This document shows positions 3,579 through 60,730 of a DNA stretch of 64,000 bases, piece after piece. This stretch comes from Candidatus Eiseniibacteriota bacterium (GTDB lineage: Bacteria > Eisenbacteria > RBG-16-71-46). Position numbers and translations under genes: made by a program. The stretch lies in the NCBI GenBank assembly GCA_036505355.1, contig DASXTP010000102.1, positions 84 through 64,083 on the forward strand. Direction: 5' to 3'. Under the pieces are notes generated by a model, which saw only the letters and a program-made list of their open reading frames with translations, had not been told where the DNA came from and did no database searches. The number at the start of each line of letters is the position of its first letter. Within the stretch, counting starts at the first letter, position 1.

Positions 3579-5114
3579 CTACTCGTTGTCCCAGGAGAGA
3601 GAGCGACAAACACCGGTCCCCTCCTGGGGTGGCTGGAGCACGTAGTGGGCTGTGACGGCGATGTCGAGCGTGGCGCGGCTGCCGCGGATTGCGACCTCCA
3701 CCCGGTCCACCAAGGCGAGGACGACCCGGCGTCGGGTCTCGAACGAGAGCGGGCCGGCGTCCAGCCGCCGGTTGAGCGCGGCCAGCAGCACCCCTGCCGC
3801 GTCCAGGCGGCCCTGCGCCTCCCGAGCCCGAGCGCCAGCATCCTCCAGGGTGACGAGCTCGGCGGCCAGCGCCTCCCGCTCCTGGCGGGCCAGGTCGAGG
3901 TCGCGCTCGGCTTCGCCGTCGGTGATGAGGCCGCGCCGGTGCAGGGCGATGGTGCGCTCGCGCTCGGCGTCCTTGCCGGCGAGCTGCTTCCTCAGGTCCC
4001 GGAGGCGCTTGGTGGCGAAGGCCTGCTCACTGCGGCCGAGGGTCTGCTTGCGAGCCAGCTCCGCGACCGCGTCGTTCGGGTTGCGCACGATGGTCTCGCA
4101 GTCCTTCCAGATCGCCGCCTCCAGCGCGTCCGCGCGCAGCTGGCGCGCCGGGTGCCGGCCGGTGCACCGGTAGACCGGGTTCGACCCGCCGCCCCCGATC
4201 AGCCGCCGGCCGCACGCCGCGCACCGTAGGACACCCCTCAGTAGGAAGTCCCGCCGACAGTTGCGCTTCGAGTTCGAGAAGTTCCGGGCCAGCCCCGCCT
4301 GGGCCGCTTGCCAGGTCGCCCCGTCCACGATCGCGGTGCACTCGCTCTGGATGATTTTGCCTCCTGCGCGCTTGCGGCGCGGCCCCCAAACGCGGAGCCC
4401 GCGATAGGTCGGGTTCCGCGCGATCCGCCGCACGCTGCACGACGCCCAGCGGCTGTCGCTGCCCTTGGGGGCACGAATGCCGGTGGCGTAGAGCCGGTCC
4501 GCCACCGTCTGGCTGCTGGCGCCGCCGCCGATCATCTCGAAGATCATCCGGACCACCGCTGCGGGACTCACGGTGCTGCCGGGCAGCGGCGTCTCGTCGG
4601 GGACCAGCTTCTTCTCGGCGCTCAGCACATACCCGTAGGGCACGTGGCCGGCGGCGTGGTAGCCCTCGCGCGCCCGGCGATGCAGACCGGCGGTGGTCCT
4701 CGCGACGATGTTGCAGCGCTCCAGCTCGGCCACGCTGGCCAACGTGCTGATGAGGAACCGGCCCGGCGCCGTCGTCGAGTCGAACGGCTCCGCCGCGCAG
4801 AGGATCTCGACCCCGGCCGCCTCCAGCGCCTGGATCGCGGTCAGGGTCACGAGCGTGCTGCGGCCGAGGCGGTCCAGCTTGTAGGTGACCAGCTTGGTGA
4901 TGCGGCCGGCCCTCGCGTCCTCCAGCAGGCGACGCCCCGCCGGCCGATCCTCCAGGCGCGTGGTCCCGGTGATCTCGTCCTCGTAGACGCTCGGCTCCGC
5001 CAGGCCGTGGCGCTCGCAGAAGCGGACGCACTCGGCCCGCTGCGTGGCGAGGCCGCCGCCCTGGTCCTCGGTGCTGGTCCGCAGGTAGCAGGCGATCCCC
5101 GGCTTGTCGCTCAT
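3579..5114 (-). CDS. Large serine recombinase (resolvase/invertase N-domain, recombinase domain, zinc ribbon, coiled coil)
   Basis: IACYLRTSTEDQ catalytic-Ser region, YKLDRLGRS, zinc ribbon CAACGRRL..YRCTG, long Arg/Glu/Ala-rich coiled-coil tail. Start moved from the track value 5237 to ATG 5114 (MSDKPG), which overlaps the upstream ORF stop as ATGA. Confidence 0.85.
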   Translation of the reverse strand: MSDKPGIACYLRTSTEDQGGGLATQRAECVRFCERHGLAEPSVYEDEITGTTRLEDRPAGRRLLEDARAGRITKLVTYKLDRLGRSTLVTLTAIQALEAAGVEILCAAEPFDSTTAPGRFLISTLASVAELERCNIVARTTAGLHRRAREGYHAAGHVPYGYVLSAEKKLVPDETPLPGSTVSPAAVVRMIFEMIGGGASSQTVADRLYATGIRAPKGSDSRWASCSVRRIARNPTYRGLRVWGPRRKRAGGKIIQSECTAIVDGATWQAAQAGLARNFSNSKRNCRRDFLLRGVLRCAACGRRLIGGGGSNPVYRCTGRHPARQLRADALEAAIWKDCETIVRNPNDAVAELARKQTLGRSEQAFATKRLRDLRKQLAGKDAERERTIALHRRGLITDGEAERDLDLARQEREALAAELVTLEDAGARAREAQGRLDAAGVLLAALNRRLDAGPLSFETRRRVVLALVDRVEVAIRGSRATLDIAVTAHYVLQPPQEGTGVCRSLSWDNE

Positions 5115-5290
5115 GGCTTCCCCCGCAGCTGCTGCTGGTAGAGCATCAATCCGTCCAGCACGATGCTGCTCTGGTCGCGCCCCTCGCGGGCACCCTGCAG
5201 CCGCAACCACTTCCTCACGCGGCCCGGCAACGTGCACCGGACTTTCGCGGGATGGTCCCGGCGCGGCGGCCGACCCAGCTTCCTAGCCAT
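5111..5290 (-). CDS. Small ribbon-helix-helix (CopG-like) DNA-binding protein coupled to the recombinase
   Basis: MARKLGRPPRRDHPAKVRCTLPGRVRKWLRLQGAREGRDQSSIVLDGLMLY fits a beta-strand/helix/helix RHH pattern. Its stop overlaps the recombinase ATG. The start is chosen at an internal ATG of track ORF 5111..5353. Confidence 0.5.
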   Translation of the reverse strand: MARKLGRPPRRDHPAKVRCTLPGRVRKWLRLQGAREGRDQSSIVLDGLMLYQQQLRGKP

Positions 5291-6383: not shown

Positions 6384-6689
6384 ATGTTCGCCAAGCGATT
6401 CTTCTACGTCTGGGCGGGGCTGCTGTGCCTGGCGCTTGCCTACCACCTCGGAGCCCAAAGCGCTGTGGCGCTGGATCGCGATGGTCCAACCGCCGTCGGC
6501 CTGGTGGTCTACCCTGACGCTATGGGCGAGAGCCAGTGGTATGCGCTGGCTTCAAACGGCGACGTATATCATGTCACCAACCGCACCGGGTCTTGGGGCA
6601 AGAACTCGAACATCTTTTCCCCACACCCCCCGGCAAAGCTACCGTTGTCCGAGATACTTCCGGCGAAGACTCCGGGCAGCAAGCGGTAA
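6384..6689 (+). CDS. Small secreted protein, paralog 3
   Basis: N-terminus MFAKRFFYVWAGLLCLALAYHLGAQSAVA, then SNGDVYHV...SNIFSP. GGAGGCGGTC precedes the ATG. Confidence 0.6.
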   Translation: MFAKRFFYVWAGLLCLALAYHLGAQSAVALDRDGPTAVGLVVYPDAMGESQWYALASNGDVYHVTNRTGSWGKNSNIFSPHPPAKLPLSEILPAKTPGSKR

Positions 6690-6703
6690 CAGGCCACGTT
6701 GAA

Positions 6704-7375
6704 ATGCTTATCTCTTTGCTCGCGGGCCTCGCTCTGGCAGCGGTGATGTTTCTCCATGCTGTGCGTGTTAGGTGGATCGAGCGTTTTCGCGAGGCGCATG
6801 CCGATGCCCTTAGCGTGTTGGTCACCGTGCTGGCCACGTTCTGCGGCGTTGCCTGGGCGATCACGTGGACTGATATGGCCACCGATCAGCGTGAACGCCG
6901 AACAGTGGCCCGCCTGCTGGCCGTGGCTTCGCAGGAAATGTTCGTCGGGGCCGCGGATATCGCAATGGACCTGGGGGCGGCACCAAACCAAAGGGGAGCG
7001 CCGCCGGCCGATCCTTCGGTCTTCGGAGCTGTGCTGGAGAATGAAATCGTACTGAAGCACATGACCGATGCGGCACTGGGGAGGACGCAACGGCTTCGTG
7101 TCGTATATGCCAGGGCAAGACGGGACAGCGCAATGGAACGCACCGGGCAGACTCTTCTGCAACTGTCTGAGTTATTGAAGGCGGAGAGCCAGTATCAGAG
7201 CGGCCGGCACGACCGGCGCTGGCTCGCGCTGCAAATGAATCGCTCGGACTCGCTGAGGTGGAAACGTCTTGCGGAAACATTTAGGGCGGAAACGTTTAAG
7301 GAGGGCGTCCTCCACGAGTTTGGAATCGACCGCTACATGGAATTGGTCGACCGATTGTGGCAGTCGGGTTGGTAG
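6704..7375 (+). CDS. Two-TM membrane protein with helical cytoplasmic domain (unknown family)
   Basis: Start chosen at ATG 6704 (MLISLLAGLALAAVMFLHAV = TM1; LSVLVTVLATFCGVAWAITW = TM2), followed by a charged helical domain. The segment is visibly lower in GC: a hand count of 6701-6760 gives 33/60 G+C. Confidence 0.55.
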   Translation: MLISLLAGLALAAVMFLHAVRVRWIERFREAHADALSVLVTVLATFCGVAWAITWTDMATDQRERRTVARLLAVASQEMFVGAADIAMDLGAAPNQRGAPPADPSVFGAVLENEIVLKHMTDAALGRTQRLRVVYARARRDSAMERTGQTLLQLSELLKAESQYQSGRHDRRWLALQMNRSDSLRWKRLAETFRAETFKEGVLHEFGIDRYMELVDRLWQSGW

Positions 7376-7596
7376 TGACGAAGGGGCCGCCGTCGCCGGC
7401 CAGGGCACCGTGCTCATCGTCTGCCCCCGACCTCTGGTCCGCGCGACCCGGCGACCGGCCTTTCTGGCCCATCCTTGGAGTTCGATTCCGAGCGCACCAG
7501 CTCTTGGTGCCTGTACACGGTCTTCACGGCGATCCGGCCGGCGGCGAGCCAGGCCATGGCGACCGCAACCGCCGGGCTTTTAGCACTGAGGAGGCG

Positions 7597-8346
7597 ATGA
7601 TGGCAGGCATGTCATGGTCGGAGGCAGTCGAAGTGATCCAGCCGCATGTGGTTCGCATCTCGACTCCCCAGGGCTCAGGAACCGGGTTTCTCATCTCGAA
7701 CGGCCGCAATAACACAGTCTGCGGTATCGCGACCGCGGCTCACGTGATCGATCACGCTCACTACTGGGAAGAGCCGATCCGGATCGATCACATAAGTTCG
7801 GGCAAGTCTCTTGTAGTCAGGGAGGACGACCGGGCCCTGTTTCTCGACTCGAACCGTGACACGGCAGCCATTCTGTTCGATCGTGGCGAGCTGCCGATGC
7901 CGGCCGATGCGCTTCCACTGGTACCTAAGGCCATGTTCCTGATGGTGGGCAACAGGATTGGGTGGCTCGGCTTCCCGGCCATACCTGCCGCCAGCCTTTG
8001 CTTCTTCTCGGGGGACGTCAGCGCGTGGCTCGGGGAGCAGACAGCGTACCTTGTCGATGGTGTGGCGATCAATGGCGTGAGCGGTGGTCCCGCCTTTCAT
8101 ATTGTGGAGACCGATCCGGGGGCCATCGTGATCGTCGGTGTGGTTTCGTCATACGTACCAAACCGGGCTACGGGCGAGGTGCTACCGGGGCTCTCTATTG
8201 TCAGGGACGTGTCGCAGTTCCACGAGTTGGCCCCGACGTTTGCATCGCTCGACGAAGCCCAAGAGGCTCAGCCGCCTGCGGATGCGCCGCCGCCCAAGCC
8301 CGAGAGTCAGGGCCTCGGGGAAACACCAGCGAGGCGTGCTACCTGA
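7597..8346 (+). CDS. Cytoplasmic trypsin-like (S1/Trypsin_2-type) serine protease
   Basis: Start at ATG 7597 after GAGGAGG. Catalytic-triad contexts appear in His-Asp-Ser order: TAAHVIDH, NRDTAAILF, INGVSGGPAF. No signal peptide. Confidence 0.75.
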   Translation: MMAGMSWSEAVEVIQPHVVRISTPQGSGTGFLISNGRNNTVCGIATAAHVIDHAHYWEEPIRIDHISSGKSLVVREDDRALFLDSNRDTAAILFDRGELPMPADALPLVPKAMFLMVGNRIGWLGFPAIPAASLCFFSGDVSAWLGEQTAYLVDGVAINGVSGGPAFHIVETDPGAIVIVGVVSSYVPNRATGEVLPGLSIVRDVSQFHELAPTFASLDEAQEAQPPADAPPPKPESQGLGETPARRAT

Positions 8347-8361
8347 GCCTGATCCGCCGTC

Positions 8362-8817
8362 CTACGTGCCACCACGGTCACCGCTTCCCGTGCCGTCCGT
8401 GGTCCAGCTCTGGCTCCAGCCGCGACCGGCAATGGTCCAGGCCTGCACGATGGCGCGGTCCAGCATGGCTTCGATCCGCTCCGCGCTCTGACCCACCAGC
8501 CGAGGCGCCAGGCCACAGACGATCCGCCCCAAGCACTTCGCCAGCAGTTCCTCGTACTGACCAACGATCCAGGCCGCGTCCTCGATCGAGACGAGCCCCT
8601 CCTGCTGCGGCTGGGGGGTCTGCTGCTGTCCACCGAGCCGGGGCCTAATATTCTCGTTCCAAGCTCGGTCCGCCGCGGCAAAGTCAATCTTCCCGTCCGG
8701 GAACACGGCCCCATCCAAGTGCCCTCGCGCGACCGCCCGCCGCACGCTCTCGTGGGTCCCCCCAGGGAGACCCCGGCCTCGCCGGTCCCGCGCGTACGCC
8801 CTAGCGCTCCCCCTCAT
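8362..8817 (-). CDS. Small phage-type HTH protein (terminase-small-subunit-like or regulator-like N-terminus)
   Basis: Only the last 151 codons of track ORF 8362..9774 look real. ATG 8817 is preceded by GAGGGGGG. AYARDRRG..THESVRRAVARGHLDGAVFPDGKIDFAAADRAWNENI matches the HTH pattern common at N-termini of phage small DNA-binding or packaging proteins. Confidence 0.45.
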   Translation of the reverse strand: MRGSARAYARDRRGRGLPGGTHESVRRAVARGHLDGAVFPDGKIDFAAADRAWNENIRPRLGGQQQTPQPQQEGLVSIEDAAWIVGQYEELLAKCLGRIVCGLAPRLVGQSAERIEAMLDRAIVQAWTIAGRGWSQSWTTDGTGSGDRGGT

Positions 8818-8994
8818 GCCCCCCTCATCAGCGCCCGGCTGTCGGCTGCCTTGCCCCGCGGGCTGTGCCTGGCCACATTTCGCCCGTCGCCGGGACCCGC
8901 GCCTCGTTGGACGGGGGAGGACCCGCAAATCGTACGGTGGTACCATTGACAAGCCGTTCTCCCTGCCGCTGCACTCCCAACGTCGGAGGCCGTC

Positions 8995-9495
8995 ATGCGC
9001 ACTCACCTCACCTCGCTTCTGGTCGTTCTCGCCGGTGCGTCCGTCCCGGTAGCGGTCCATGCGACCGACGTCGTCTATGCCCTCACCGGATCGGCGACCA
9101 CGATCGTCTGTCCGCCGGAAGAGTGCACCTCGGGCGTGACGACGACCGGCAGCCTCACGGCCGGTTCTGTGCCCCCGGGGGCGCCGACGGCCGGTGATTT
9201 CCGGCTCGATCTTGCTTGGATTCTGCAGCCCACCGACCCGTGCCGCGCGCGGGGCGCAGACGGCACACTGACGATCAACTGGAGCGACGGCACCATCACC
9301 GTCGCAAGCGTCACCGGGCGGTTCCGCGATTCCAAGCCGGCACTCTTCGTGTCCGGCAGGGTCGGTGCCGGTTCGACCGGAAGCATCTATCAACCAGGGG
9401 ATCCTTGCAGGAGCGTGGTCAACGCCCTCCCAGAAGACCCGTGCGTTGCCGGCACGGTCGCGGTCACCGGAGAGGTCGAACTCCGCACGAAGTAG
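8995..9495 (+). CDS. Secreted Cys-containing protein (unknown family)
   Basis: Signal peptide MRTHLTSLLVVLAGASVPVAVHA. Same GGAGGCCGTC-ATG initiation context as the tandem trio. Confidence 0.55.
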   Translation: MRTHLTSLLVVLAGASVPVAVHATDVVYALTGSATTIVCPPEECTSGVTTTGSLTAGSVPPGAPTAGDFRLDLAWILQPTDPCRARGADGTLTINWSDGTITVASVTGRFRDSKPALFVSGRVGAGSTGSIYQPGDPCRSVVNALPEDPCVAGTVAVTGEVELRTK

Positions 9496-9692
9496 TCGGA
9501 GTCCGCCCGGGGTGGTCAACAGCCGCTTCACGTGCGCATTCCCCCGCACGAATCGCGTGACTTCCCGCCGCAAAGTGAGTCCCGGGGCACCGCGCGGAGC
9601 GGCAGCCGGCCCCGGGGCGCGCGCACCGATGACGCTCGTGGCTGCACGAGCGCGGAGACCGGACGATGCCATCCGGCCGATGCGCGTGGCTA

Positions 9693-9875
9693 TCAATGGG
9701 ATTCCATAGCGGAAGTCCAAAAGATCAACTCGTGCGTCGTGCGCGAGCGCCCATCCAGCTTCCGAGTGAGCCAATCCTCAATGCGCCGCATCTCCTCGAA
9801 GTCGCCGACGCCCTCGATCGCAACACCGAAGTCACGCTTGATCCGCCGCTCCACGGATGTAGCCTGACCGGTCAT
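9693..9875 (-). CDS. Hypothetical small protein
   Basis: 60-aa ORF whose ATG overlaps the stop of the upstream ORF (ATGA at 9872-9875). Mostly G/C third positions. Confidence 0.35.
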   Translation of the reverse strand: MTGQATSVERRIKRDFGVAIEGVGDFEEMRRIEDWLTRKLDGRSRTTHELIFWTSAMESH

Positions 9876-10555
9876 GCGGCCTCCTCGATGATCTCGATCA
9901 CCGGATCACGGCCGCGAGAGCTGCGACCAAGGATTATTTCCCGCGCCCATCCCAAGCCGACCTCGTGCTCGCTGCCCACCTCCCAGACCTGACCAGCGAA
10001 GCCGACGATGGATTTGAGCACCCGGATACGACAGCGCTTCAGCGGTTCGACGGGCAGCGCTGGTGCCGGAGGGGGCGCCGACGGTGCGACCGGCCGCTTC
10101 GATCGCTCGACGACTTCGAGGGCCTCGCGGCGCTCACGAGCCAACCGCTCGCGTCGCGCAATCACTCGCGGATCGTCGTTGTCGGCGATCGTGGCTCGGC
10201 CGCGGTGTAGAAGATTACGCCCCAAGAACTCGTCCACCAGGACACTTTCGCCGACGACGCCGAGGCGACAGCCACCGGGCGCAGCCGGATCGGCAACGAT
10301 CACGGGGCTCGTCAGCGTGACTCTCAATCGGGGCGCCCTGGCGAGCTCCCGCTCCTGCTCGCGCTGCTCGGCCTCGGCGCGGAGGCGATCGCCCAACAGC
10401 GCGCCGGGCGGCTCGGTCGTCAGTATCGGCAACGGCGATTTCCCGATGCCCTCCACGCCCTCGTGCCGAGCCTGCCGCGATGCGAGCAGCGGTTCGGTCG
10501 CGTCCAGAGAACGCCACCGTCGTTCCTCTTCAGCGTACGGCCGGATCCAGCTCAT
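9872..10555 (-). CDS. Hypothetical protein (element backbone)
   Basis: 227-aa ORF in the same minus-strand operon, coupled to the downstream small ORF. No recognisable motifs. Confidence 0.45.
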   Translation of the reverse strand: MSWIRPYAEEERRWRSLDATEPLLASRQARHEGVEGIGKSPLPILTTEPPGALLGDRLRAEAEQREQERELARAPRLRVTLTSPVIVADPAAPGGCRLGVVGESVLVDEFLGRNLLHRGRATIADNDDPRVIARRERLARERREALEVVERSKRPVAPSAPPPAPALPVEPLKRCRIRVLKSIVGFAGQVWEVGSEHEVGLGWAREIILGRSSRGRDPVIEIIEEAA

Positions 10556-10585: not shown

Positions 10586-11221
10586 TCACCGCTCAGGGAC
10601 GTTTCTCCTCCACGTCTCTTCTACTTCGCGCCTCAGATTCGGCGCCCATTCCCTTCGGACCACGGTCCGCGCCAGCGAGAGCCATCGCAGCTTGGCCGGC
10701 AGCCTCACGGTGCGGCGGAAGAGGTAGAGCAGCGTTGATCGCAGCTTCCCCGGCTGCTGTTGAAAGACTCCAACCTTCGGCACGATGTAGCTGCGGATCG
10801 CGCCTCTGCGACTCCGGCCCGCCGTGGTGCTCGGGAACAATCGCTGGAACCAGAAGCGGGGCGGAATACTGGATCGTGGCGATGGCCGCGCGCCCACCGG
10901 GATCGCGACGTTCTGGCCGACGAAACCGGTGCGCTCACCGCCTTCCTCATAGTGGGGGAGGAGCAAGCGCTCTCGCTGGCCGACAGCGACCGTGGTATTC
11001 AACCGGAACGGCGTGGCCCTCGGCTTGATGACCGCGACCTGCCGCCGGACGAACTCTTTGCGGACCAGGAAGCCGCGCTCGAGCTGGGCTCGTTCCTCGC
11101 GCTGGACCGCGTCGGCGGTACGGTTCAACGCGTTCGAGAGGGCGTAGGAAAACCTCTTCTGCCCCTTTCGCAGACCCAACAGGACCCGAGCGCTATTCGT
11201 ACTGACCTTGATCTGAATCAT
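10586..11221 (-). CDS. Hypothetical protein; faint resemblance to phage head-tail/morphogenesis proteins (not reliable)
   Basis: Start moved to ATG 11221 (MIQIKVSTNSARVLLGLRKG) after GAGAGGGGG. First ORF downstream of the iteron array. Confidence 0.5.
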   Translation of the reverse strand: MIQIKVSTNSARVLLGLRKGQKRFSYALSNALNRTADAVQREERAQLERGFLVRKEFVRRQVAVIKPRATPFRLNTTVAVGQRERLLLPHYEEGGERTGFVGQNVAIPVGARPSPRSSIPPRFWFQRLFPSTTAGRSRRGAIRSYIVPKVGVFQQQPGKLRSTLLYLFRRTVRLPAKLRWLSLARTVVRREWAPNLRREVEETWRRNVPER

Positions 11222-11392
11222 GCAGCCCCCTCTCGGTGCCGCCCCGTGCGACGACCGCCTCCACTCCTGGAGCGGTCCAGGGCCGGCGATCGTCCCGGTG
11301 CTAGGGTCGGCGGCCGCTGGTTCATCGGCGAACCCGGCGCGTGCCACGACGACCGCATCAGGCTTATTGTCGTTGCGACACCAACCGCCGCT

Positions 11393-11570
11393 GGTTTCCG
11401 CCTGCCTGGCGTTTCCGCCGCCGTTCCGCCCCCCTTAAGGGGGAGGCGGAATGGCGGAACGGAAGCGGTACCGCCTGGTTCCGCCTGCTTTCCGCCTGGT
11501 TTCCGCCTGCCTTTCCGCCTTGTTTCCGCCTGATCGGGTTTCCGCCAAGTTTCCGCCAGGGGTTTGCCGC
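11393..11570. repeat. Iteron array: at least 10 direct TTTCCGCC/GTTCCGCC copies plus 2 inverted copies flanking a CCCCCTTAAGGGGG palindrome; putative replication origin
   Basis: Direct copies start at 11395, 11412, 11423, 11478, 11489, 11500, 11512, 11523, 11539 and 11550, with a degenerate copy at 11561. Inverted GGCGGAA copies at 11445 and 11453. The palindrome at 11430-11443 is centred on TTAA. Spacing is mostly 11-12 bp. Confidence 0.75.
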
Positions 11571-11579
11571 AGGAGGGCA

Positions 11580-13502
11580 TCATTCCTCCGGCTCGGGGTC
11601 GCCGGCCGGTCGGTTCGTGGGGGCGTAATAGCCCCGCCGCGGCCGGTCGATCACCCGAAGGACATCGGTCATACGCTTGAGGGCGCGCTCGATCGACCTC
11701 GCTGGCAGGGGTGGGGCCTCGGCCGCGGCGGCCGCGATGATCCACTTGGCGGGGCTGGCCCCCTTCTCGACCAGGTACTTCAGCACGAAGTCTTCGGCCC
11801 GCTCGGTGGTGGTCTCGCCCTCGTCGACGGATCCCTCCCCGGTCAGGACGATCGGGGCATCGGGGCCTGCGGTCGTGTAGCGGATTCTGAGACTGGCGCG
11901 CTCGCCGTCCCGCCGCTTCACCTGGACCAGGTCCATGAGCCCCCGGGCCGGCTGGGACGCAACCCACACGGTGCTGGCCTGGGTGCTGAAGGCCACACTT
12001 CCATGCACGAGGTGCAGCTTCGCCAGGTGCCCGTCGGAGGCCGGCTTCCGCAGATGGCCGATCAGCGCGAAGGTGGTGTCGTAGTCCCGCCGGAGCCGAA
12101 ACAACGTCGCATACACTGCCGCCACCGCCCCCGCGTCGTTCCCATCGATCCCGGCGAACACCTGCTGCACCGAGTCGAACACCACCAGCAGTGGCCGGTG
12201 GGCGCCCAGCTCGTACTCGATCCGCTGCAGCCCCTCGGCCGTCGTGAGGTTCACGCCCTGTTGTGAGGCCACCCGCAGCTGGTGGTGCGGGGCACCGAGG
12301 CGCAGGTAGAGGCGCGACACCTCGCGCACCGATTGCTCCTCGTCGAACACCAGCACCGGCCCGGCCCTGGCCACCTGGATACCGCACCAGGCGCCGCCCG
12401 TGGCCACCGCCATCGCCAGCGCCGCGATCGTCGTGGACTTGCCGATCCCCCCGTCGCCGGGGGCCAGGGCGATGTCCCCCTCGGCCAACCAGCCCGGCAC
12501 GATCCACGGCACCGCGGGAATCCCCGCGTCCCGGATCGTGGCGAGGTCCAGGTACTCCACCTGGGGCGCGTCGGGCTTCTTCTCCGCTGCCCATCGGGGC
12601 GCGGCCGCGACCAGCGCATCGAGCCGAGCGCGGCGTTCGCCGGTCGGGACGGGGCCGAGCCAGTCCACCAGGTCGGAATGCTCCCCGAGGTCCGAGAACC
12701 GCACCGTGCGGATGTCGTAGGTGCCGACCGCCGCTAGCGATGCAGCCTCCGCTCGGCCGTGGGCTCGGCCGGCGGAGTCGTGGTCCTCGAAGACCACCGC
12801 CGCCGCGGCCCCACGAAGCTGCTCGGCGTGGCCCGGGGTCCACTTGGGGGCTCGGCCGTCCTCCGAGGCGCCACCGACGTTGCACGTGCCCGGCAGGCCC
12901 AGGGCGATCAGCGCGTCGACGACGCGCTCGCCCTCGCCGATGTAGACGGTCCCGCCGGAGCGCGCCGCTTCGATCACGGCCGCGGCGTTGTAGAGCAGGG
13001 CCCGGGTGTCGGGCTTGGCGAAGCCCCTCGGCAGGTCGCGCGGCCAGCACCACTCGCCAGCGTTCCAGTACTGGCGTTGCAGCTTCACGGTCTTGCCGTG
13101 GCGCAGGTGGCGCACCACTCGTAGCACCGGGGTGCCCGCCGCGTCGCGATAGTCGTGGTGGACGACCTCGGTGCTCGGGCTCGCGCCGTCGCCGTTGTGC
13201 GAAGGGGCGCCGCCGAGGATCAGGTCGCGATCCGCGTCCGTGGCACCCAGCTCCTCGAGCATCAGCGGCAGCGCGGCGGCCGGCCCGCACACCTGGCACG
13301 CGGCGATCACCAGTACCTGGTCGCCCGCGCGGGCGTCGGCCGAGGGCTTGAGATCGTCGTGGAGGCAGCAGCAGAACTTGAACGCTGTGTGGCCAGGGTT
13401 CCAGACGACGCGCTTCCGCGCACGGATCAGAAGCTCCGCGAACCGCTCCAGGCCCGCGCTCAACGAGGCTCCGCGCGGTCGATGGCGATGTCGGCGAGCC
13501 AA
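11580..13502 (-). CDS. Bifunctional primase-helicase (CHC2-like zinc finger, Toprim, AAA_25/RepA-like ATPase, C-terminal wHTH-like tail)
   Basis: CCCLHDDLKPS...CQVCG resembles the DnaG zinc finger CPFHxxxTPS...C.GCG. Toprim motifs VYIGEGERVVDAL and FEDHDSAG. Walker A PGDGGIGKST in an AAA_25-like context. The track start is TTG 13502; TTG 13463, overlapping the upstream stop as TTGA, is an equally likely start. Confidence 0.85.
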   Translation of the reverse strand: MARRHRHRPRGASLSAGLERFAELLIRARKRVVWNPGHTAFKFCCCLHDDLKPSADARAGDQVLVIAACQVCGPAAALPLMLEELGATDADRDLILGGAPSHNGDGASPSTEVVHHDYRDAAGTPVLRVVRHLRHGKTVKLQRQYWNAGEWCWPRDLPRGFAKPDTRALLYNAAAVIEAARSGGTVYIGEGERVVDALIALGLPGTCNVGGASEDGRAPKWTPGHAEQLRGAAAAVVFEDHDSAGRAHGRAEAASLAAVGTYDIRTVRFSDLGEHSDLVDWLGPVPTGERRARLDALVAAAPRWAAEKKPDAPQVEYLDLATIRDAGIPAVPWIVPGWLAEGDIALAPGDGGIGKSTTIAALAMAVATGGAWCGIQVARAGPVLVFDEEQSVREVSRLYLRLGAPHHQLRVASQQGVNLTTAEGLQRIEYELGAHRPLLVVFDSVQQVFAGIDGNDAGAVAAVYATLFRLRRDYDTTFALIGHLRKPASDGHLAKLHLVHGSVAFSTQASTVWVASQPARGLMDLVQVKRRDGERASLRIRYTTAGPDAPIVLTGEGSVDEGETTTERAEDFVLKYLVEKGASPAKWIIAAAAAEAPPLPARSIERALKRMTDVLRVIDRPRRGYYAPTNRPAGDPEPEE

Positions 13503-14014: not shown

Positions 14015-14215
14015 CTAATCGCTCGTCGGTATCCTCCGCACCAGTTTCCGAACTTCGGCCCATTCGGGCTTAGACAGCGCCCTTTGGACTCTCAGCGCCG
14101 TCACCCGCCACACCCGCTCGCCAGCGAGGTACCGCTGCACCGTCGCCGGACCAACCTCGGCATCGGCGGCCAGGCGTCGCAGGTCCATCAGATCCAGTTG
14201 GAGCTCGTTGCTCAT
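14015..14215 (-). CDS. Small HTH DNA-binding protein (Cro/excisionase-like), first gene of the minus-strand replication operon
   Basis: Only the last 66 codons of track ORF 14015..14875 are taken. MSNELQLDLMDLRRLAADAEVGPATVQRYLAGERV, preceded by GAGGAGAGAG before ATG 14215. Confidence 0.5.
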   Translation of the reverse strand: MSNELQLDLMDLRRLAADAEVGPATVQRYLAGERVWRVTALRVQRALSKPEWAEVRKLVRRIPTSD

Positions 14216-18178: not shown

Positions 18179-21100
18179 TCAGTACTCCCAACGGGCCTTG
18201 AGGTTGACGTTGAAGTCCGGGGCCGAGGAGGGAGTGGTGCTGCCGGCGGTCTGACGCTTCTGGGTGAGCTGACTCGTGATGTAGAAGAACCGACTCAGCC
18301 GGTACTCGGCCTCGATGTCGCGCTCGATCGGGTTCACATCGGTGCCCGAAAGCACCGAGCTTCCGGTTCCGGGCAGAAGCTGTCGGTAGCGCACGGCCAG
18401 CTGGCTGTTGAGCTGGCTGCCCACGCCGAGGATCACGCCGCCTTGCCCCAGCAGCCCACCCGATTGCCGCGCGATCTCCCACTCGGTGAGGTAACCGCGA
18501 AACGCCTTGGACAGCTCCGACGAGAGCTGGCGGTTGATGGCCTGCGTCAGGTAACTGTCCGCGGGGTCCTTGAGCGCCACCGTCTCGCCCTGGACGAAGC
18601 GCCCGACGGTCAGCTCCCGCAGGATCTGCGCCTCGTCGAGGGCGTCCGGCTCGCTCGCCAGCTCGACCGCCGGCCGGCTCGAACGACCGCGGATTCGGAC
18701 CGTGATGGTCTGCGGCTGGGGCCGAACCGGCGGGCCGGTCGGCGAATCGAACGCCTGACTCGGCACCAGGCGGGTGGTGGCCTCGGCATCCACTACCGGA
18801 TCCACGCCGCCCACGTTGTCGAAGGTCAGGGCGGCCCGTTTCACGGTGAAGCGGTTGCTGAGGAAGTAATACGTGCCGCGGAGCGCCTCCATGTCGCCGA
18901 AGATCAGCAGCTGCTCCGGGCTCTGCTCGATGTTGAGGTCGGCGCTGAACTCGATGTCGCCGTCGGACGGCTGCCAATGCAGATTGTCGTTGGCGTGCAC
19001 CTGGAGGTGGTAGGTCCAGAACAGGGGCTGGGTGCTCGCGGCCACCTGCTGGACCTCGGTCTGTCGGGTGAAGTCGTAGAGGATCACCGCGCGCCGGATC
19101 TCGACATTGTCGCTGGTCACGCGCGGCACCGTATGACCGCCGATCCGGGGCCCGTTGGTGACCTTGAAGTCGCCGTCGAAGCGCGCCGCGTACACCCCGG
19201 GCTCCAACGCCGCGACGTCGCGCATCGAGAGGTCGAACGAGTAGCCGGCCAGCCCGGCGCCCCGCAGGTTCACGACCCCGTGGGCCGCCACGCGCCCGGG
19301 CTCGCCTTGTCGGGTGCGCTGGATCGCGGTCAAGGTGTCGAGCGTCACCCGCGACTCTCCCAGCGTGAGCCGCGCCGTGACGTCCTGCAGCACCTCCTCC
19401 CGTCCGGCCAGTCGCAGGCGACCCTCGCGAAGTCGCGCGGTGCCGTGCAGCGCCGGCTTCTGAGGGGTGCCGGAAACCTCGGCATCGATGCTGAAGCGGC
19501 CGGCCGCCGAGCCGATCTGCGGCACGAACAGCGGGAGCAGGCCCAAGTCGCCGTCGGGGTAATCCAGGCGCCACGACATCGGCGCTTCCGGCAGCCTTAG
19601 GGACTGGCCGAACGCGAGCTGGAACGGCATCTCTCCCACGATCGTCGACGTCACGCCGCCGCGCGTCAGCTTGAGCTCCCGCACCTGTAGGCGCTCGTCG
19701 CGAAGCTCGGCCTTCACCGCGACCTGGTCCGCGGTGTAGTTCCGCCAGCCGAGCGCGCGGCCGTCCACCTCCAGTTGGAGCTCCGGGTGTGCCGGTCGGC
19801 CGGCGACCTCGAGGGTGCCGCTCAAGCGCCCGCGCCAGCCTTGAGCCGGTGGGGTGAACTGCCCGAGATGATCCACCGGTAACCCCTGCGCGCTCAAGGT
19901 GCCCTGCCAACGAGACGCCCCCGCGAGCCACCGCACCACGCCCGCTGCGGTCAGGGTGTCGGGCCACGTCCGGGTCGTCCCCTCGATTCGGCCCGAGCCG
20001 CGCAGGGTCCCGCCCTGAACGCCGAGCACCAACTGTCGGACCTCGAAGCGCGAAGGACCGCCGCCGAGCGAGAGCGCGAGCGAGTCGGCGCGGTGGTCCT
20101 GGTACGCCGGGGCGCGGCACGCGGCGCTCAGCTCCCAACGCGGATCGCTCTCCGCGCCGGTCACGCGCAACTCTCCCCCGGCTCGTCCTTCGAGCCTCCA
20201 TTCGGCCGGCAGCCCGATACGGGCCAGCTCCACGTCTTGGGCCGTGGCGTGCCAGTCGTGCCAGCCCCCGGGGGCGGCCCAGCGTCCCGACATCTCGAGG
20301 CGCGCGGTCCCGTCGGCAGCCGTGAGCCGCTCGAAGGTCACGCCTCGCGCATCCCCCGAGAGTCGCATCGGCGGGCTGGCCACCCAGTGAAACTGACTGC
20401 TCTGCGCGCTGGCGCGCTCGGCCCCGAAGCTCCAGCCGCGGTCGTTCCACCCGGTCCCGCCGGCCAGCGCCACCACCGTGTCGCCCGCCCAGGCTTCGAG
20501 CGCAGGAAATCCCAGCGATCGGTCCCCGAGATGCAATGGGGTGGCGAGGCTGTCGAAGTGGATCCCCAAGAACACGAGCTGCTCGAGCCGCGCCCGCGCG
20601 GTGAGGTCCGGGACCGGGAGGAGGCGGCCCTGAATTTCGCTCAGCGTCCAGCGCGCCGACTGCGCCCCGAACCACCGGGTCGCAGCACCCGAGAGCGTGC
20701 CCGTGACGTCGAGGGCGCCCTCGTGTCCGGTCACCGCACCGGCTCCGGCAACCAGCGAGCCTTGGATGCCGGTGGCCCGGCCATCGGGCCACTCATCGAG
20801 CGGGAAGCGGGCCACCGTGTAGACGCCTCGCCAAGCACCCTCGTCCACGGCGCCCGTCAGCGTCAGCTCGCCGCCGCGGCGAAACGCGCGCACCCGGAAG
20901 CTGTCGGCGCCGATCGGGCGGAAGTCCACGGCGACCACGGCGCTGTCGGTACGCCACCCCGCCCACTCGGAGCTGCCCAGCCGTGCGGCCAGCTGGGAGT
21001 GGTTGTGGTCGCGCGAGTCCACGCGGTACTTGAACCTTCCGTGCAGCCGGCCGGCCGGCCAACCGGCGATGCCGATCACGGACCAGCGTGCCGGATCCAC

Positions 21101-45142: not shown

Positions 45143-45218
45143 TGGTGGGCGGAACAGGACTTGAACCTGTGACCCCCTGGTTGTGATCCAGGTGCTCTGC
45201 CAGCTGAGCTATCCGCCC
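45143..45218 (-). tRNA. tRNA-Val (anticodon CAC), CCA encoded
   Basis: Reverse complement GGGCGGATAGCTCAGCTGGCAGAGCACCTGGATCACAACCAGGGGGTCACAGGTTCAAGTCCTGTTCCGCCCACCA folds as a canonical cloverleaf: acceptor GGGCGGA/TCCGCCC, anticodon loop ATCACAA. Confidence 0.9.
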
Positions 45219-45284
45219 CAATCCGCGCTGCGCTCCAGCCCCAGGCGACACCGAATCGACGGGCCGCCGCACCGGCTGGGTTCT

Positions 45285-45358
45285 TGGGCCCACCTGGATT
45301 CGAACCAGGGTCTTACCGGTTATGAGCCGGCCGCTCTGGACCGCTGAGCTATGGGCCC
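45285..45358 (-). tRNA. tRNA with CAT anticodon (elongator Met, or Ile2 if lysidine-modified); CCA not encoded
   Basis: Reverse complement GGGCCCATAGCTCAGCGGTCCAGAGCGGCCGGCTCATAACCGGTAAGACCCTGGTTCGAATCCAGGTGGGCCCA. Cloverleaf with a G1-C72 pair, so not an initiator. Confidence 0.9.
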
Positions 45359-45399
45359 AGCGACGTGCGCCCATGGACCGCAGCGCTCAAAGCCGTGCG

Positions 45400-60632: not shown

Positions 60633-60730
60633 TGGCGGGAACGCGTGGGAATCGAACCCACCTCGGACGTGATGAACGCCCGACCGCAGGATTTGAAGTC
60701 CCCGGAGGCCACCAGACCCCATTCGCTCCC
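60633..60730 (-). tRNA. selC: tRNA-Sec (anticodon TCA), CCA encoded
   Basis: Reverse complement GGGAGCGAATGGGGTCTGGTGGCCTCCGGGGACTTCAAATCCTGCGGTCGGGCGTTCATCACGTCCGAGGTGGGTTCGATTCCCACGCGTTCCCGCCA. It has a 6-bp D-stem with a 4-nt loop (GGGGTC-TGGT-GGCCTC), anticodon loop CTTCAAA, a long 7-bp variable arm, a 5-bp T-stem and an 8-position acceptor with discriminator G. These are tRNA-Sec hallmarks. Confidence 0.8.

What the first reader, a model, noticed from the sequence alone, without database searches (positions are those of the whole stretch)
11393..11570. Helically phased TTTCCGCC iteron array around a TTAA-centred palindrome, directly 3' of the primase-helicase gene
At least ten direct copies of TTTCCGCC/GTTCCGCC start at 11395, 11412, 11423, 11478, 11489, 11500, 11512, 11523, 11539 and 11550, with a degenerate copy at 11561. 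The right-hand block is spaced 11-12 bp apart, so the sites lie on one face of the helix. Two inverted copies (GGCGGAA at 11445 and 11453) and the 14-bp palindrome CCCCCTTAAGGGGG (11430-11443) sit between the two direct-repeat blocks. The array fills the whole gap between the primase-helicase stop (11580) and the next gene start (11221). Iterons flanking a meltable centre next to the rep gene is the classic origin arrangement of iteron plasmids and SaPI-type satellites. Here the only A/T-rich spot is the TTAA core, which is unusual. The track ORFs across it (11341..11628 + and 11451..12266 +) are artefacts of the repeat.
Basis: partly seen in the sequence, partly recalled or inferred. Interest (0 to 1): 0.7.

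Follow-up and report, generated by a model that had tools for sequence, protein, structure and literature searches.

The report
Replication origin beside a primase-helicase gene
The repeat array is real and is very probably the replication origin of a small integrated mobile element, read by a DNA-binding tail on the neighbouring primase-helicase; the layout is familiar from phage satellites, but the helicase type and the G/C-clamped centre are not.

Summary
Twelve of the 29 TTCCGCC sites in the 64-kb window lie in 11396-11557: ten direct and two inverted, around CCCCCTTAAGGGGG (11430-11443). About 0.04 would be expected there by chance.

The origin reading is supported by comparison. Ten independent relatives of the helicase carry an iteron array at or just after the helicase stop codon. 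Eight of them, like the window, show one plan:
- 3-7 direct repeats at about 11-bp phase
- one or two inverted copies
- a short TA-centred palindrome, mostly clamped by C and G runs
- two or three more direct copies

The repeat sequence differs between relatives, and so do the neighbouring genes and the recombinase type. Only the helicase is constant. Its C-terminus is predicted to fold as a winged helix. Position 5 of the recognition helix tracks the repeat sequence.

This matches the origin plan described for SaPI and PICI satellites. Two things differ. The helicase here has a RecA fold like RSF1010 RepA (superfamily 4), not superfamily 3. No AT-rich unwinding region is present; only a G/C-clamped TTAA core.

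One claim needs correcting: the array fills only the helicase-side half of the gap. I rate it a new variant of a known kind, of moderate interest. Nothing has been tested functionally.

The parts
11580..13502 (-). Gene for a three-part replication protein: an N-terminal Zn-finger/TOPRIM-like primase region (about residues 1-310), a RecA-fold AAA_25 helicase (about 320-555) and a C-terminal winged helix (about 564-628). The true start may be 13463, giving 627 aa, which is the length of the database copy P0001.
   Evidence: Pfam AAA_25, E 2.3e-27. PHROG primase/helicase families 239, 6088 and 906. Foldseek best match is the RSF1010 RepA hexameric helicase 1g8y. Predicted structure of residues 315-640. 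P0001 length. The primase assignment rests on the PHROG hits plus CxH..CxxC, EGE and DxD motifs read by eye; the N-terminal region has no Pfam or PDB sequence hit.
11619..11813 (-). Coding region of the C-terminal winged-helix domain (residues 564-628). The recognition helix ARSIERALKRMTD is residues 601-613, at 11664-11702. This is the proposed iteron reader.
   Evidence: AlphaFold2 predicts helix-strand-helix-helix-strand-strand with pLDDT 82-95. Foldseek hits are all winged-helix domains, with TM-score 0.6-0.8. Conservation across 47 relatives shows a fixed scaffold (R602, R606, A607, L608, L611, R623, G624, Y626) and variable positions 601, 605, 609 and 610.
11478..11557 (+). Helicase-proximal iteron block: seven direct copies of (G/T)TTCCGCC, which read GGCGGAA(A/C) on the helicase sense strand. 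Spacings are 11, 11, 12, 11, 16 and 11 bp. The block ends 22 bp from the helicase stop codon. A degenerate copy lies at 11468-11475.
11445..11459 (-). Two inverted iterons, 8 bp apart, on the helicase side of the central palindrome.
   Evidence: A tightly spaced inverted pair (8-9 bp) occupies the same position in L050, L055, L046, L051 and L056. In L053 and L054 the script found only one inverted copy; a second, degenerate copy 8 bp away is my reading of the sequence.
11430..11443 (.). Central palindrome CCCCCTTAAGGGGG: a G/C clamp around a 4-bp TA core. This is the proposed initiation or melting centre.
   Evidence: Equivalent C-run/TA/G-run elements occur in L046, L050, L053, L001, L003, L004, L015 and L026. 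A motif of this kind occurs in the 390-nt zone around the helicase stop (40 nt before to 350 after) in 11 of 38 non-redundant loci, against 0.027 expected per 390 nt.
11395..11430 (+). Distal iteron block: three direct copies at 11395, 11412 and 11423, on the far side of the palindrome and opposed to the inverted pair.
11405..11478 (.). Long imperfect inverted repeat formed by the opposed iterons plus the palindrome. It could form a cruciform or hairpin.
   Evidence: Arms of 26 nt, 81% complementary. As single-stranded DNA the free energy is -29.6 kcal/mol, z-score -5.2, and 0 of 200 shuffles fold as well.
11222..11394 (.). Repeat-free half of the intergenic gap, with a mild GC dip at 11350-11389. 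It probably holds the expression signals of the next gene. A role in unwinding is not excluded.
   Evidence: No sigma-70 or terminator consensus was found.
10586..11221 (-). Next gene downstream, 211 aa, phage structural-like. It is not part of the origin; it marks the boundary.
   Evidence: PHROG 1924 'minor tail protein', E 1e-15. It is 35% identical to hypothetical proteins of Bordetella phages. It is absent from the relatives that share the helicase-array module.
7257..7293 (+). Possible second, small cluster of the same iteron (GGTGGAAAC, TGCGGAAAC, GGCGGAAAC) in the opposite orientation, 4.1 kb away.
   Evidence: My rough estimate is about 0.02 such clusters expected by chance. Function unknown.

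Best explanation
The stretch 11395-11570 is the vegetative replication origin of a roughly 11-kb integrated element, which runs from the serine recombinase gene at 3579-5237 to about 14.9 kb. The product of the adjacent gene is both initiator and replicative helicase.

**Proposed steps (all inferred, none shown).**
1. The C-terminal winged helix of the protein reads the 7-8-bp iteron GGCGGAA(A).
2. The block of 11-bp-phased direct iterons next to the gene collects subunits on one face of the DNA.
3. The opposed iteron pairs on either side of the CCCCCTTAAGGGGG core position two helicase rings facing each other.
4. DNA is opened at or beside the TA core. The surrounding imperfect palindrome may extrude as a hairpin or cruciform, which would give the ring-shaped helicase the single strand it needs.
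5. The protein's own N-terminal primase domain starts synthesis.

**What is shown.** The repeat anatomy; its conservation at this position in relatives; the helicase and winged-helix folds, as predictions; and the co-variation of iteron sequence with the recognition helix.
For: 1. **Local enrichment.** Twelve of 29 window matches fall in 162 bp, where about 0.04 are expected.

2. **Arrays in relatives.** Ten independent relatives of the helicase (35-73% identical over the helicase and tail) carry an iteron array that starts within about 25 nt after the helicase stop or overlaps the last codons.

| Locus | Iteron | Centre |
|---|---|---|
| L050 | GGCGGAA / GTCGGAA | CCCCTTTAGGGG |
| L053 | GGCGGAA | CACCCCTTTAGGGGTG |
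| L054 | GGCGGAA | CATATG |
| L055 | GACGGAA | CCTATAAGG |
| L046 | YGGCAG | CCCCCTATAGGGGG |
| L001 | TGTCGGC | C-rich stem, TAC, G-rich stem |
| L003 / L011 | TTGGCACAA | C8, TAC, G8 |
| L051 | TGGCCCGAA | CCCCTATAGAG |
| L056 | TGGCCCAA | contig ends before the centre |
| L057 | TCGGGGAAGTC | no palindrome identified |

Sources. The first eight loci show the full plan. The 11-bp phase recurs in all loci except L057.

3. **Only the helicase is constant.** Neighbouring genes differ, and none of the window's other proteins except the recombinase is found in these loci. Recombinases are of serine or tyrosine type, or absent. The small upstream proteins of the four loci that share GGCGGAA are not homologous.

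4. **The tail is a winged helix**.

5. **Specificity tracks the recognition helix.** Position 5 of the recognition helix is E or D in all six loci whose iteron ends in GGAA: the window, P0013, P0010, P0018, P0019 and P0020. It is H, N or K in the five loci whose iterons differ: P0002, P0003, P0004, P0016 and P0017. P0002 is the closest relative (71-73% identical) yet has both a different residue and a different iteron. P0016 and P0017 have identical helices and the same iteron. Across 47 relatives this position is among the most variable, on a conserved scaffold.

6. **More distant relatives.** About a dozen more distant AAA_25 loci (24-47% identical) also carry 5-10-copy arrays right after the helicase stop.

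7. **Published precedent.** Self-loading Rep helicases have their origin immediately 3' of their gene, made of short iterons read by a C-terminal winged helix, with at least two iterons on each side in opposite directions (PMC9371898; PMC6092414; the related SCCmec Cch2, PMC7581432; pRN1, PMC4234260).
Against: - No functional test exists for any member of this helicase subfamily. No cultured phage or plasmid relative was found at E 1e-5.
- There is no AT-rich unwinding region, so where the DNA opens is unknown.
- Ring helicases of this fold normally need a loader and single-stranded DNA. Self-loading is shown only for superfamily 3 Rep proteins.
- The residue-iteron correlation rests on 11 loci that are not fully independent.
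- A small HTH protein with a TVQRY motif occurs upstream in two of the GGCGGAA loci, the window and L050, and could contribute to binding there.
- L004 (38% identical) has the palindrome but no clear iterons.
Confidence: 0.8

Rival explanations
1. The array is an operator or terminator region. In this reading, the sites are bound by a transcription regulator (a small HTH protein of the element, or the helicase tail acting as an autoregulator). This binding controls read-through from the replication gene into the downstream structural-like genes, and the G/C hairpin serves as the terminator.
For: The array lies between two co-directional genes. The palindrome is a stable G/C hairpin. A small HTH gene lies upstream in the window (14018-14215), with a look-alike in L050. 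HTH_17 genes precede the helicase in L046, L051, L054 and L055.
Against: No T-run follows the hairpin and no terminator or promoter consensus was found. Upstream small proteins are not homologous among loci that share the same iteron. Downstream genes are unrelated between loci, while the array is constant. Ten to twelve phased sites plus opposed pairs is far more than an operator needs, and it matches the known origin plan. Regulation and origin function could also coexist.
Confidence: 0.07
2. The array is a packaging signal (pac or cos-type) recognised by a small terminase subunit. It lies at the junction between the replication and structural modules.
For: In phage L003 the array lies just upstream of small genes followed by a probable large terminase, portal and capsid genes. 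In the window the next gene is phage structural-like. Terminase-binding sites are often phased repeats.
Against: In L001, L050, L053, L054 and L057 the genes after the array are not structural; they include a methyltransferase, an HTH_Crp regulator, a reverse-strand gene and an HNH protein. The array overlaps the helicase 3' end in L054 and L055. Iteron sequence co-varies with the helicase tail. No terminase gene was detected in the window element.
Confidence: 0.04
3. The array is a centromere-like partition site of the plasmid R1 parC kind: two blocks of about 11-bp repeats around a core, bound by a small adaptor protein.
For: The 11-bp phasing and the two blocks flanking a core resemble parC. 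This comparison rests on my own knowledge of the R1 system.
Against: No ParM-, ParA- or ParR-like gene was found in the element. The element is integrated and carries a recombinase. The array follows the helicase gene in every relative.
Confidence: 0.03
4. The repeats are arm-type binding sites for the element's recombinase or an excision factor.
For: A large serine recombinase gene lies in the same element at 3579-5237.
Against: The array is about 6 kb from the recombinase gene and from either element end. Serine integrases do not use arm sites (established knowledge). Relatives with tyrosine integrases, or with no integrase nearby, have the same array next to the helicase.
Confidence: 0.01

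Closest known systems
SaPI/PICI replication origins with self-loading Rep or Pri-Rep helicases (Staphylococcus SaPI1, SaPI5, SaPIbov1; E. coli EcCICFT073)
   Same: The origin lies immediately 3' of the rep gene. It has 6-12 short iterons (5-8 bp), with at least two on each side of a centre pointing in opposite directions. A C-terminal winged-helix domain of the helicase reads them. Primase is sometimes fused to the helicase. The element is integrated (PMC9371898, PMC6092414).
   Different: SaPI and PICI Reps are superfamily 3 (AAA+) 3'-to-5' helicases. This one has a RecA-fold AAA_25 helicase whose best structural match is RSF1010 RepA. The SaPI/PICI centre is an AT-rich region; here it is a 14-bp G/C-clamped palindrome with a 4-bp TA core. 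The integrase is a large serine recombinase. Helper-phage dependence is unknown.
Bacteriophage P4 alpha protein with ori and crr
   Same: A single polypeptide carries a bacterial-type primase, a helicase and a C-terminal winged helix that binds octamer repeats (as summarised in PMC4234260). There are two repeat clusters, ori and crr (my own knowledge). The second small iteron cluster at 7257-7293 and the duplicated array in L001 recall this arrangement.
   Different: The P4 alpha helicase is superfamily 3. The iteron sequences and origin layouts differ. Whether the window's second cluster matters is untested.
RSF1010 (IncQ) RepA helicase and oriV
   Same: It is the closest solved fold for the helicase domain. 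The origin uses iterons plus hairpin-forming palindromes (ssiA, ssiB) that become priming signals once unwound (PMC4234260 summary).
   Different: In RSF1010 three separate proteins do the work: RepC binds 20-bp iterons, RepA unwinds and RepB' primes. An AT-rich stretch is also present. Here one protein carries all three modules and the iterons are 7-8 bp.
T7 gp4-type primase-helicase
   Same: The domain order is the same: zinc finger, TOPRIM primase, then a ring helicase of superfamily 4. For the window protein this rests on motifs read from the sequence plus the PHROG hits.
   Different: As far as I know, gp4 has no origin-binding domain and does not choose the origin. The window protein adds a winged helix and has a cognate iteron array.
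pRN1 ORF904 and SCCmec Cch2 replication modules
   Same: The origin or binding site lies directly downstream of the helicase gene. It has a stem-loop (pRN1), or direct plus inverted repeats (Cch2). pRN1 ORF904 has a C-terminal winged helix (PMC4234260); Cch2 binds specifically just downstream of its own gene (PMC7581432).
   Different: Both are superfamily 3 helicases. pRN1 has no iterons. They occur in archaeal or staphylococcal hosts.

Membership tests
PICI/SaPI-type origin | The origin lies immediately 3' of the replication initiator/helicase gene | tested here: met
   The first iterons lie 22 bp from the stop codon. The same holds in ten relatives.
PICI/SaPI-type origin | Six to twelve short (5-8 bp) iterons | tested here: met
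   Twelve exact TTCCGCC copies.
PICI/SaPI-type origin | At least two iterons on each side of the centre, pointing in opposite directions | tested here: met
   Copies at 11413 and 11424 on the + strand face copies at 11445 and 11453 on the - strand.
PICI/SaPI-type origin | An AT-rich region at the centre as the melting site | tested here: not met
   The centre is CCCCCTTAAGGGGG. No 30-bp window in 11200-11620 falls below 57% GC.
PICI/SaPI-type origin | The initiator is a superfamily 3 (AAA+) helicase with a C-terminal winged helix | tested here: not met
   The winged helix is present. The helicase, however, is RecA-fold AAA_25, closest to RSF1010 RepA, RadA and DnaB.
PICI/SaPI-type origin | The rep-ori segment drives autonomous replication, and Rep binds its cognate ori specifically | not testable with these tools
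   This needs a gel-shift assay and a plasmid maintenance assay.
Classical iteron plasmid origin (pPS10, RK2, F or R6K type) | 17-22-bp iterons bound by a dedicated dual winged-helix initiator, with DnaA boxes and an AT-rich unwinding element | tested here: not met
   The iterons are 7-8 bp. No Rep_3-type initiator was found among the element's proteins. There is no AT-rich element.
IncQ (RSF1010) replicon | Separate RepC iteron binder, RepA helicase and RepB' primase, with ssiA and ssiB hairpins | tested here: inconclusive
   The helicase fold matches RepA and a hairpin-forming palindrome is present. The three functions are fused here, and no RepC or RepB' homologue was detected.
P4 alpha-type primase-helicase-winged-helix initiator | Primase, superfamily 3 helicase and C-terminal winged helix in one chain, with two iteron clusters (ori and crr) | tested here: inconclusive
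   The domain order and the winged helix fit. The helicase class does not. A possible second cluster lies at 7257-7293.
Plasmid R1 parC-type centromere | Phased repeats next to genes for a partition NTPase and an adaptor protein | tested here: not met
   No partition genes were found in the element.

The most novel reading that the evidence does not exclude
These loci define an undescribed class of self-loading initiator-helicases built on a superfamily 4 (RepA/DnaB-fold) motor.
- A C-terminal winged helix reads short 11-bp-phased iterons placed just after the protein's own gene.
- The usual AT-rich unwinding element is replaced by a G/C-clamped, TA-centred mini-palindrome flanked by opposed iterons.
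- That palindrome would act as the loading or priming device: cruciform or hairpin extrusion would present an identical hairpin on both strands, a one-piece equivalent of RSF1010 ssiA and ssiB.
- N-terminal modules are swapped freely on this chassis: TOPRIM primase, Prim-Pol, or a DnaB N-domain that would recruit host primase.
Probability: 0.35. Interest if true: 0.65.

Novelty: new variant of a known kind. Interest (0 to 1): 0.45.

Why it matters
Origins that sit just after a helicase gene and are read by that helicase's own tail are well described, but only for superfamily 3 helicases (SaPI Rep, P4 alpha, pRN1, SCCmec Cch2).

If the reading here is right, the same solution arose on a RecA-fold ring helicase, the kind that in bacteria normally needs a separate initiator and loader. 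It would also work without an AT-rich region in roughly 70% GC genomes. That raises a concrete, testable question: how does such a helicase get onto DNA at a G/C-clamped four-base TA core?

There are practical uses too:
- The module (gene plus about 180 bp) is a compact candidate replicon for high-GC bacteria.
- The iteron and recognition-helix pairs give a small natural specificity code.
- The anatomy is a simple rule for annotating origins in roughly a hundred uncultured phage and satellite lineages (97 clusters at E 1e-30).

Tried and rejected
- **Rfam, permissive scan of 10.5-14.5 kb.** Only sub-threshold hairpin look-alikes (microRNA models at 17-29 bits against gathering scores of 65-89). 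No known RNA.
- **Promoter and terminator consensus scan of 11000-11800.** Nothing found.
- **tblastn of the helicase plus tail against cultured phages and PLSDB plasmids.** No match at 1e-5. Only weak AAA_25 hits at E up to 1, such as mycobacteriophage primase/helicases and Yersinia phage P744.
- **Sequence search of the whole protein and of the N-terminal 310 aa against PDB, and Pfam on the N-terminal region.** Only weak RadA hits for the helicase and nothing for the N-terminus.
- **Genome-collection and metagenome scans with the helicase alignment.** These returned mostly distant AAA_25 relatives. The window's own genome was not recovered, so the host taxon remains unknown beyond 'roughly 70% GC diderm with TamB'.
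- **L046 as a sister element.** I first took it for one because it has a 211-aa gene and a trypsin gene downstream. tblastn showed that no cargo is shared, so only the helicase-array module is common.
- **tblastx between loci.** Composition-driven noise in high-GC DNA; discarded.
- **Literature searches** for AAA_25 with iterons, RepA-like helicase with winged helix, and self-loading helicase with GC-rich origin found no description of this family.
- **Missing DNA.** Two relatives, P0005 and P0007, could not be read because no DNA was held.
Full report
**1. The observation**

Exact TTCCGCC occurs 29 times in the 64-kb window on both strands, and 12 of these lie in 11396-11557. Ten are on the + strand (11396, 11413, 11424, 11479, 11490, 11501, 11513, 11524, 11540, 11551) and two on the - strand (11445, 11453).

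Shuffled sequence gives 17.1 ± 4.2 matches for the whole window. The 17 matches outside the array are therefore the chance number, while about 0.04 would be expected inside it.

Tandem Repeats Finder reports a period of 11 over 11471-11532. Spacings in the right-hand block are 11, 11, 12, 11, 16 and 11. The phasing is real within sub-blocks, but the 16-bp step puts the last two copies about half a turn out of register.

The palindrome CCCCCTTAAGGGGG (11430-11443) is the centre of a longer imperfect inverted repeat made by the opposed iterons, with 26-nt arms that are 81% complementary. As single-stranded DNA it folds at -29.6 kcal/mol, z-score -5.2.

- The array occupies only the helicase-side half of the 357-bp gap. 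The stretch 11222-11394 is repeat-free.
- The 'degenerate copy at 11561' is weak.
- A better degenerate copy at 11468-11475 was missed.
- The lowest 30-bp GC content in the gap is 57%, so there is indeed no classical AT-rich element.

**2. The neighbourhood**

The gene at 11580-13502 on the - strand encodes a three-part protein. Its start is possibly 13463, which would match the 627-aa database copy.

- **N-terminal third.** It hits phage primase and primase-helicase PHROGs. Read by eye, it carries a CxH...CxxC zinc motif and the EGE and DxD motifs of TOPRIM. It has no Pfam or PDB sequence match, so 'primase' is probable rather than shown.
- **Middle.** Pfam AAA_25, E 2.3e-27. The predicted structure of residues 315-640 (mean pLDDT 79) is closest to the hexameric replicative helicase RepA of RSF1010, followed by RadA, DnaB, KaiC and RecA. 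This is a RecA-fold ring helicase of the superfamily 4 kind.
- **Last 80 residues.** They fold as helix-strand-helix-helix-strand-strand with pLDDT around 90. They match only winged-helix domains in the PDB, with TM-score 0.6-0.8.

The element around this gene has lower third-position GC than its flanks. On one side it is bordered by a large serine recombinase gene (3579-5237) next to uvrD. On the other it is bordered by a peptidase/beta-propeller gene and tamB.

The next gene downstream of the array (10586-11221) resembles a phage 'minor tail' family and hypothetical proteins of Bordetella phages. No capsid, portal, terminase or partition gene was detected. The element looks like a satellite or a reduced prophage, but I could not decide which.

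**3. Comparative evidence: the array belongs to the helicase**

A database search found relatives that share the helicase and tail (35-73% identical) but carry different N-terminal modules: the DnaB N-domain, Prim-Pol with PriCT_1, an NrS1-type polymerase domain, or TOPRIM. I fetched DNA for ten independent relatives. Each has an iteron array at or just after the helicase stop, and eight show the full plan below.

Read on the helicase sense strand, the plan is:
1. Three to seven direct short repeats at about 11-bp phase, starting within about 25 nt of the stop codon or overlapping the last codons.
2. One or two inverted copies, usually only 8-9 bp apart.
3. A short palindrome with a TA-rich centre, mostly clamped by C and G runs.
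4. Two or three more direct copies.

The repeat unit differs between loci:

| Locus (protein) | Iteron | Centre |
|---|---|---|
| window | GGCGGAA(A) | CCCCCTTAAGGGGG |
| L050 (P0013) | GGCGGAA / GTCGGAA | CCCCTTTAGGGG |
| L053 (P0010) | GGCGGAA | CACCCCTTTAGGGGTG |
| L054 (P0018) | GGCGGAA | CATATG |
| L055 (P0019) | GACGGAA | CCTATAAGG |
| L046 (P0002) | YGGCAG | CCCCCTATAGGGGG |
| L001 (P0003) | TGTCGGC | CCCCGCCCCC-TAC-GGGGGCGGGG |
| L003 / L011 (P0004) | TTGGCACAA | C8-TAC-G8 |
| L051 (P0016) | TGGCCCGAA | CCCCTATAGAG |
| L056 (P0017) | TGGCCCAA | contig ends before the centre |
| L057 (P0020) | TCGGGGAAGTC | no palindrome identified |

What surrounds the module varies:
- a phage with portal and capsid genes (L003)
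- elements with tyrosine integrases (L051, L054, L055)
- a methyltransferase, an HTH_Crp gene or an HNH gene downstream

None of the window's other proteins except the recombinase is found in these loci. The small proteins encoded upstream of the four loci that share the GGCGGAA iteron are not homologous to one another. The only constant neighbour of the array is the helicase with its winged helix.

About a dozen more distant AAA_25 loci (24-47% identical) also show 5-10-copy repeats right after the helicase stop.

**4. Specificity**

In the model the recognition helix is ARSIERALKRMTD, residues 601-613. Across 47 relatives the scaffold is conserved: R602, R606, A607, L608 and L611, and in the wing R623, G624 and Y626. 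Positions 601, 605, 609 and 610 are among the most variable.

Position 605 tracks the iteron:
- It is E or D in all six loci whose iteron ends in GGAA (window, P0013, P0010, P0018, P0019, P0020).
- It is H in P0002 (GGCAG), N in P0003 (TGTCGGC), and K in P0004, P0016 and P0017 (TGGCACAA, TGGCCCGAA, TGGCCCAA).

The closest relative of the window protein, P0002, differs in both the residue and the iteron. Relatives at 46-63% identity share both. P0016 and P0017 have identical helices and the same iteron.

The sample is small and not fully independent. It is nevertheless the pattern expected if the tail reads the repeats.

**5. The central palindrome is a family feature**

A motif of a C-run, a short TA-rich core and then a G- or C-run occurs in the 390-nt zone around the helicase stop (40 nt before to 350 after) in 11 of 38 non-redundant loci. 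The background rate is 0.027 per 390 nt. Several near-misses exist as well.

The motif is independent of the iteron sequence and of the N-terminal module. It is therefore presumably seen by the helicase part or by the host, or it acts through DNA structure. I cannot say which.

Three possibilities, all inferred:
- a very confined melting point held by G/C clamps
- cruciform or hairpin extrusion that gives a ring helicase single-stranded DNA to load on
- an identical hairpin on each unwound strand that serves as a priming signal, like ssiA and ssiB of RSF1010 (as summarised in PMC4234260)

**6. Mechanism proposed**

The array is the element's replication origin, and the adjacent gene product is its initiator, helicase and probably its primase.
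1. Winged-helix tails bind the iterons.
2. The phased proximal block concentrates subunits.
3. The opposed pairs around the core set two rings against each other.
4. The core or its surrounding palindrome opens.
5. Priming follows.

Shown: the anatomy, its conservation, the fold predictions and the co-variation. Inferred: binding, loading, opening and priming.

**7. Rivals**

- **Regulatory operator or terminator.** Not excluded as an additional role. It does not explain twelve phased sites that follow the helicase through unrelated contexts, and no terminator or promoter consensus is present.
- **Packaging site.** It fits the position in L003 but not in the other loci, and the window element has no terminase.
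- **Partition site.** There are no partition genes.
- **Recombinase arm sites.** Contradicted by the variety of recombinases.
- **Known RNA families.** None match.

**8. Comparison with what is known**

The layout matches the published SaPI/PICI origin: iterons immediately downstream of rep, read by the Rep C-terminal winged helix, with at least two on each side of the centre pointing in opposite directions (PMC9371898, PMC6092414). Related cases are P4 alpha, pRN1 ORF904 and SCCmec Cch2 (PMC4234260, PMC7581432).

Two defining features of that family are not met:
- Those helicases are superfamily 3 (AAA+), whereas this one has a RecA fold.
- Their centre is AT-rich, whereas this one is a G/C-clamped 4-bp TA core.

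So it works like a PICI origin but is not a member of that protein family. The protein's domain order is that of a T7 gp4-type primase-helicase with an origin-reading tail added. The helicase fold is that of RSF1010 RepA, with the jobs of RepC and RepB' fused on.

I found no description of this family in the searchable literature and no cultured phage or plasmid relative at E 1e-5. An exhaustive profile-free search finds 97 clusters at E 1e-30 and 519 at E 1e-10, and most of the listed matches extend through the winged helix.

**9. Verdict**

I rate it a new variant of a known kind.

Interest is moderate. A specialist would expect an origin at this position. The helicase class, the missing AT-rich element and the conserved G/C-clamped palindrome are worth an experiment.

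Noticed in passing
window 7257-7293 (+): Three copies of the same iteron (GGTGGAAAC, TGCGGAAAC, GGCGGAAAC), 13-15 bp apart. They are oriented opposite to the main array, 4.1 kb away, near the 3' end of ORF 6536-7375. This may be a second binding cluster, as with P4 ori and crr, or chance (my rough estimate is about 0.02 such clusters expected).
   Followed up: partly
L001 7140-7260 and 9480-9610 (also both ends of L002): The whole array of about 130 bp, including the palindrome, is duplicated in inverted orientation on both sides of the helicase gene, and the aligned copies are about 91% identical. The 3-nt TAC loop keeps the same absolute orientation in both copies, although everything around it is inverted.
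   Followed up: partly
Proteins P0002-P0020: One helicase-plus-winged-helix chassis carries interchangeable N-terminal modules: TOPRIM-like, DnaB N-domain, Prim-Pol with PriCT_1, or an NrS1-type polymerase domain. Conversely, P0011, P0012 and P0014 share the window's N-terminal domain but have a different helicase and C-terminus.
   Followed up: partly
38 related loci, zone from 40 nt before to 350 nt after the helicase stop: A motif of a C-run, a TA core and then a G- or C-run (for example CCCCCCTTATACCCCCC in L010, CCCCCCTAAAGGGGGG in L026, CCCCTATAGGGGG in L015) is strongly enriched after the iteron arrays, even in distant relatives with unrelated iterons. Its role is unexplained.
   Followed up: partly
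window 14018-14215 (-): A 66-aa helix-turn-helix protein (motif TVQRYLAG) is hidden in the 3' end of a spurious 286-aa Arg/Pro-rich ORF. A similar unannotated 67-aa ORF ends at the helicase start codon in L050 (about 2441-2641).
   Followed up: partly
window 3579-5237 (-): A large serine recombinase (Resolvase, Recombinase and zinc-ribbon domains; PHROG 95 integrase, E 2e-93) lies next to uvrD and probably marks one end of the element. The attachment sites and the other boundary (about 14.9 kb) were not determined.
   Followed up: no
window 7357-8346 (+): A trypsin-like peptidase gene, convergent with the structural-like genes, has weak PADLOC hits (LmuA, RT-protease, PDC-S45). It may be defence-type cargo.
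   Followed up: no
window 8362-9774 (-) and 9872-10555 (-): Two co-directional genes of 470 and 227 aa lie downstream of the 211-aa tail-like gene. Neither has a hit in Pfam, PHROGs, NCBIfam or PADLOC.
   Followed up: no
L053 3866-3954: The contig ends in a Nextera/Illumina adapter sequence followed by poly-A. This is adapter contamination in a public metagenome assembly.
   Followed up: no
window 60633-60730 (-), 45143-45359 (-): tRNA-SeC, and a tRNA-Val/tRNA-Met pair. Together with tamB (18179-22264) and roughly 70% GC, they point to a high-GC diderm host. The taxon was not identified.
   Followed up: no
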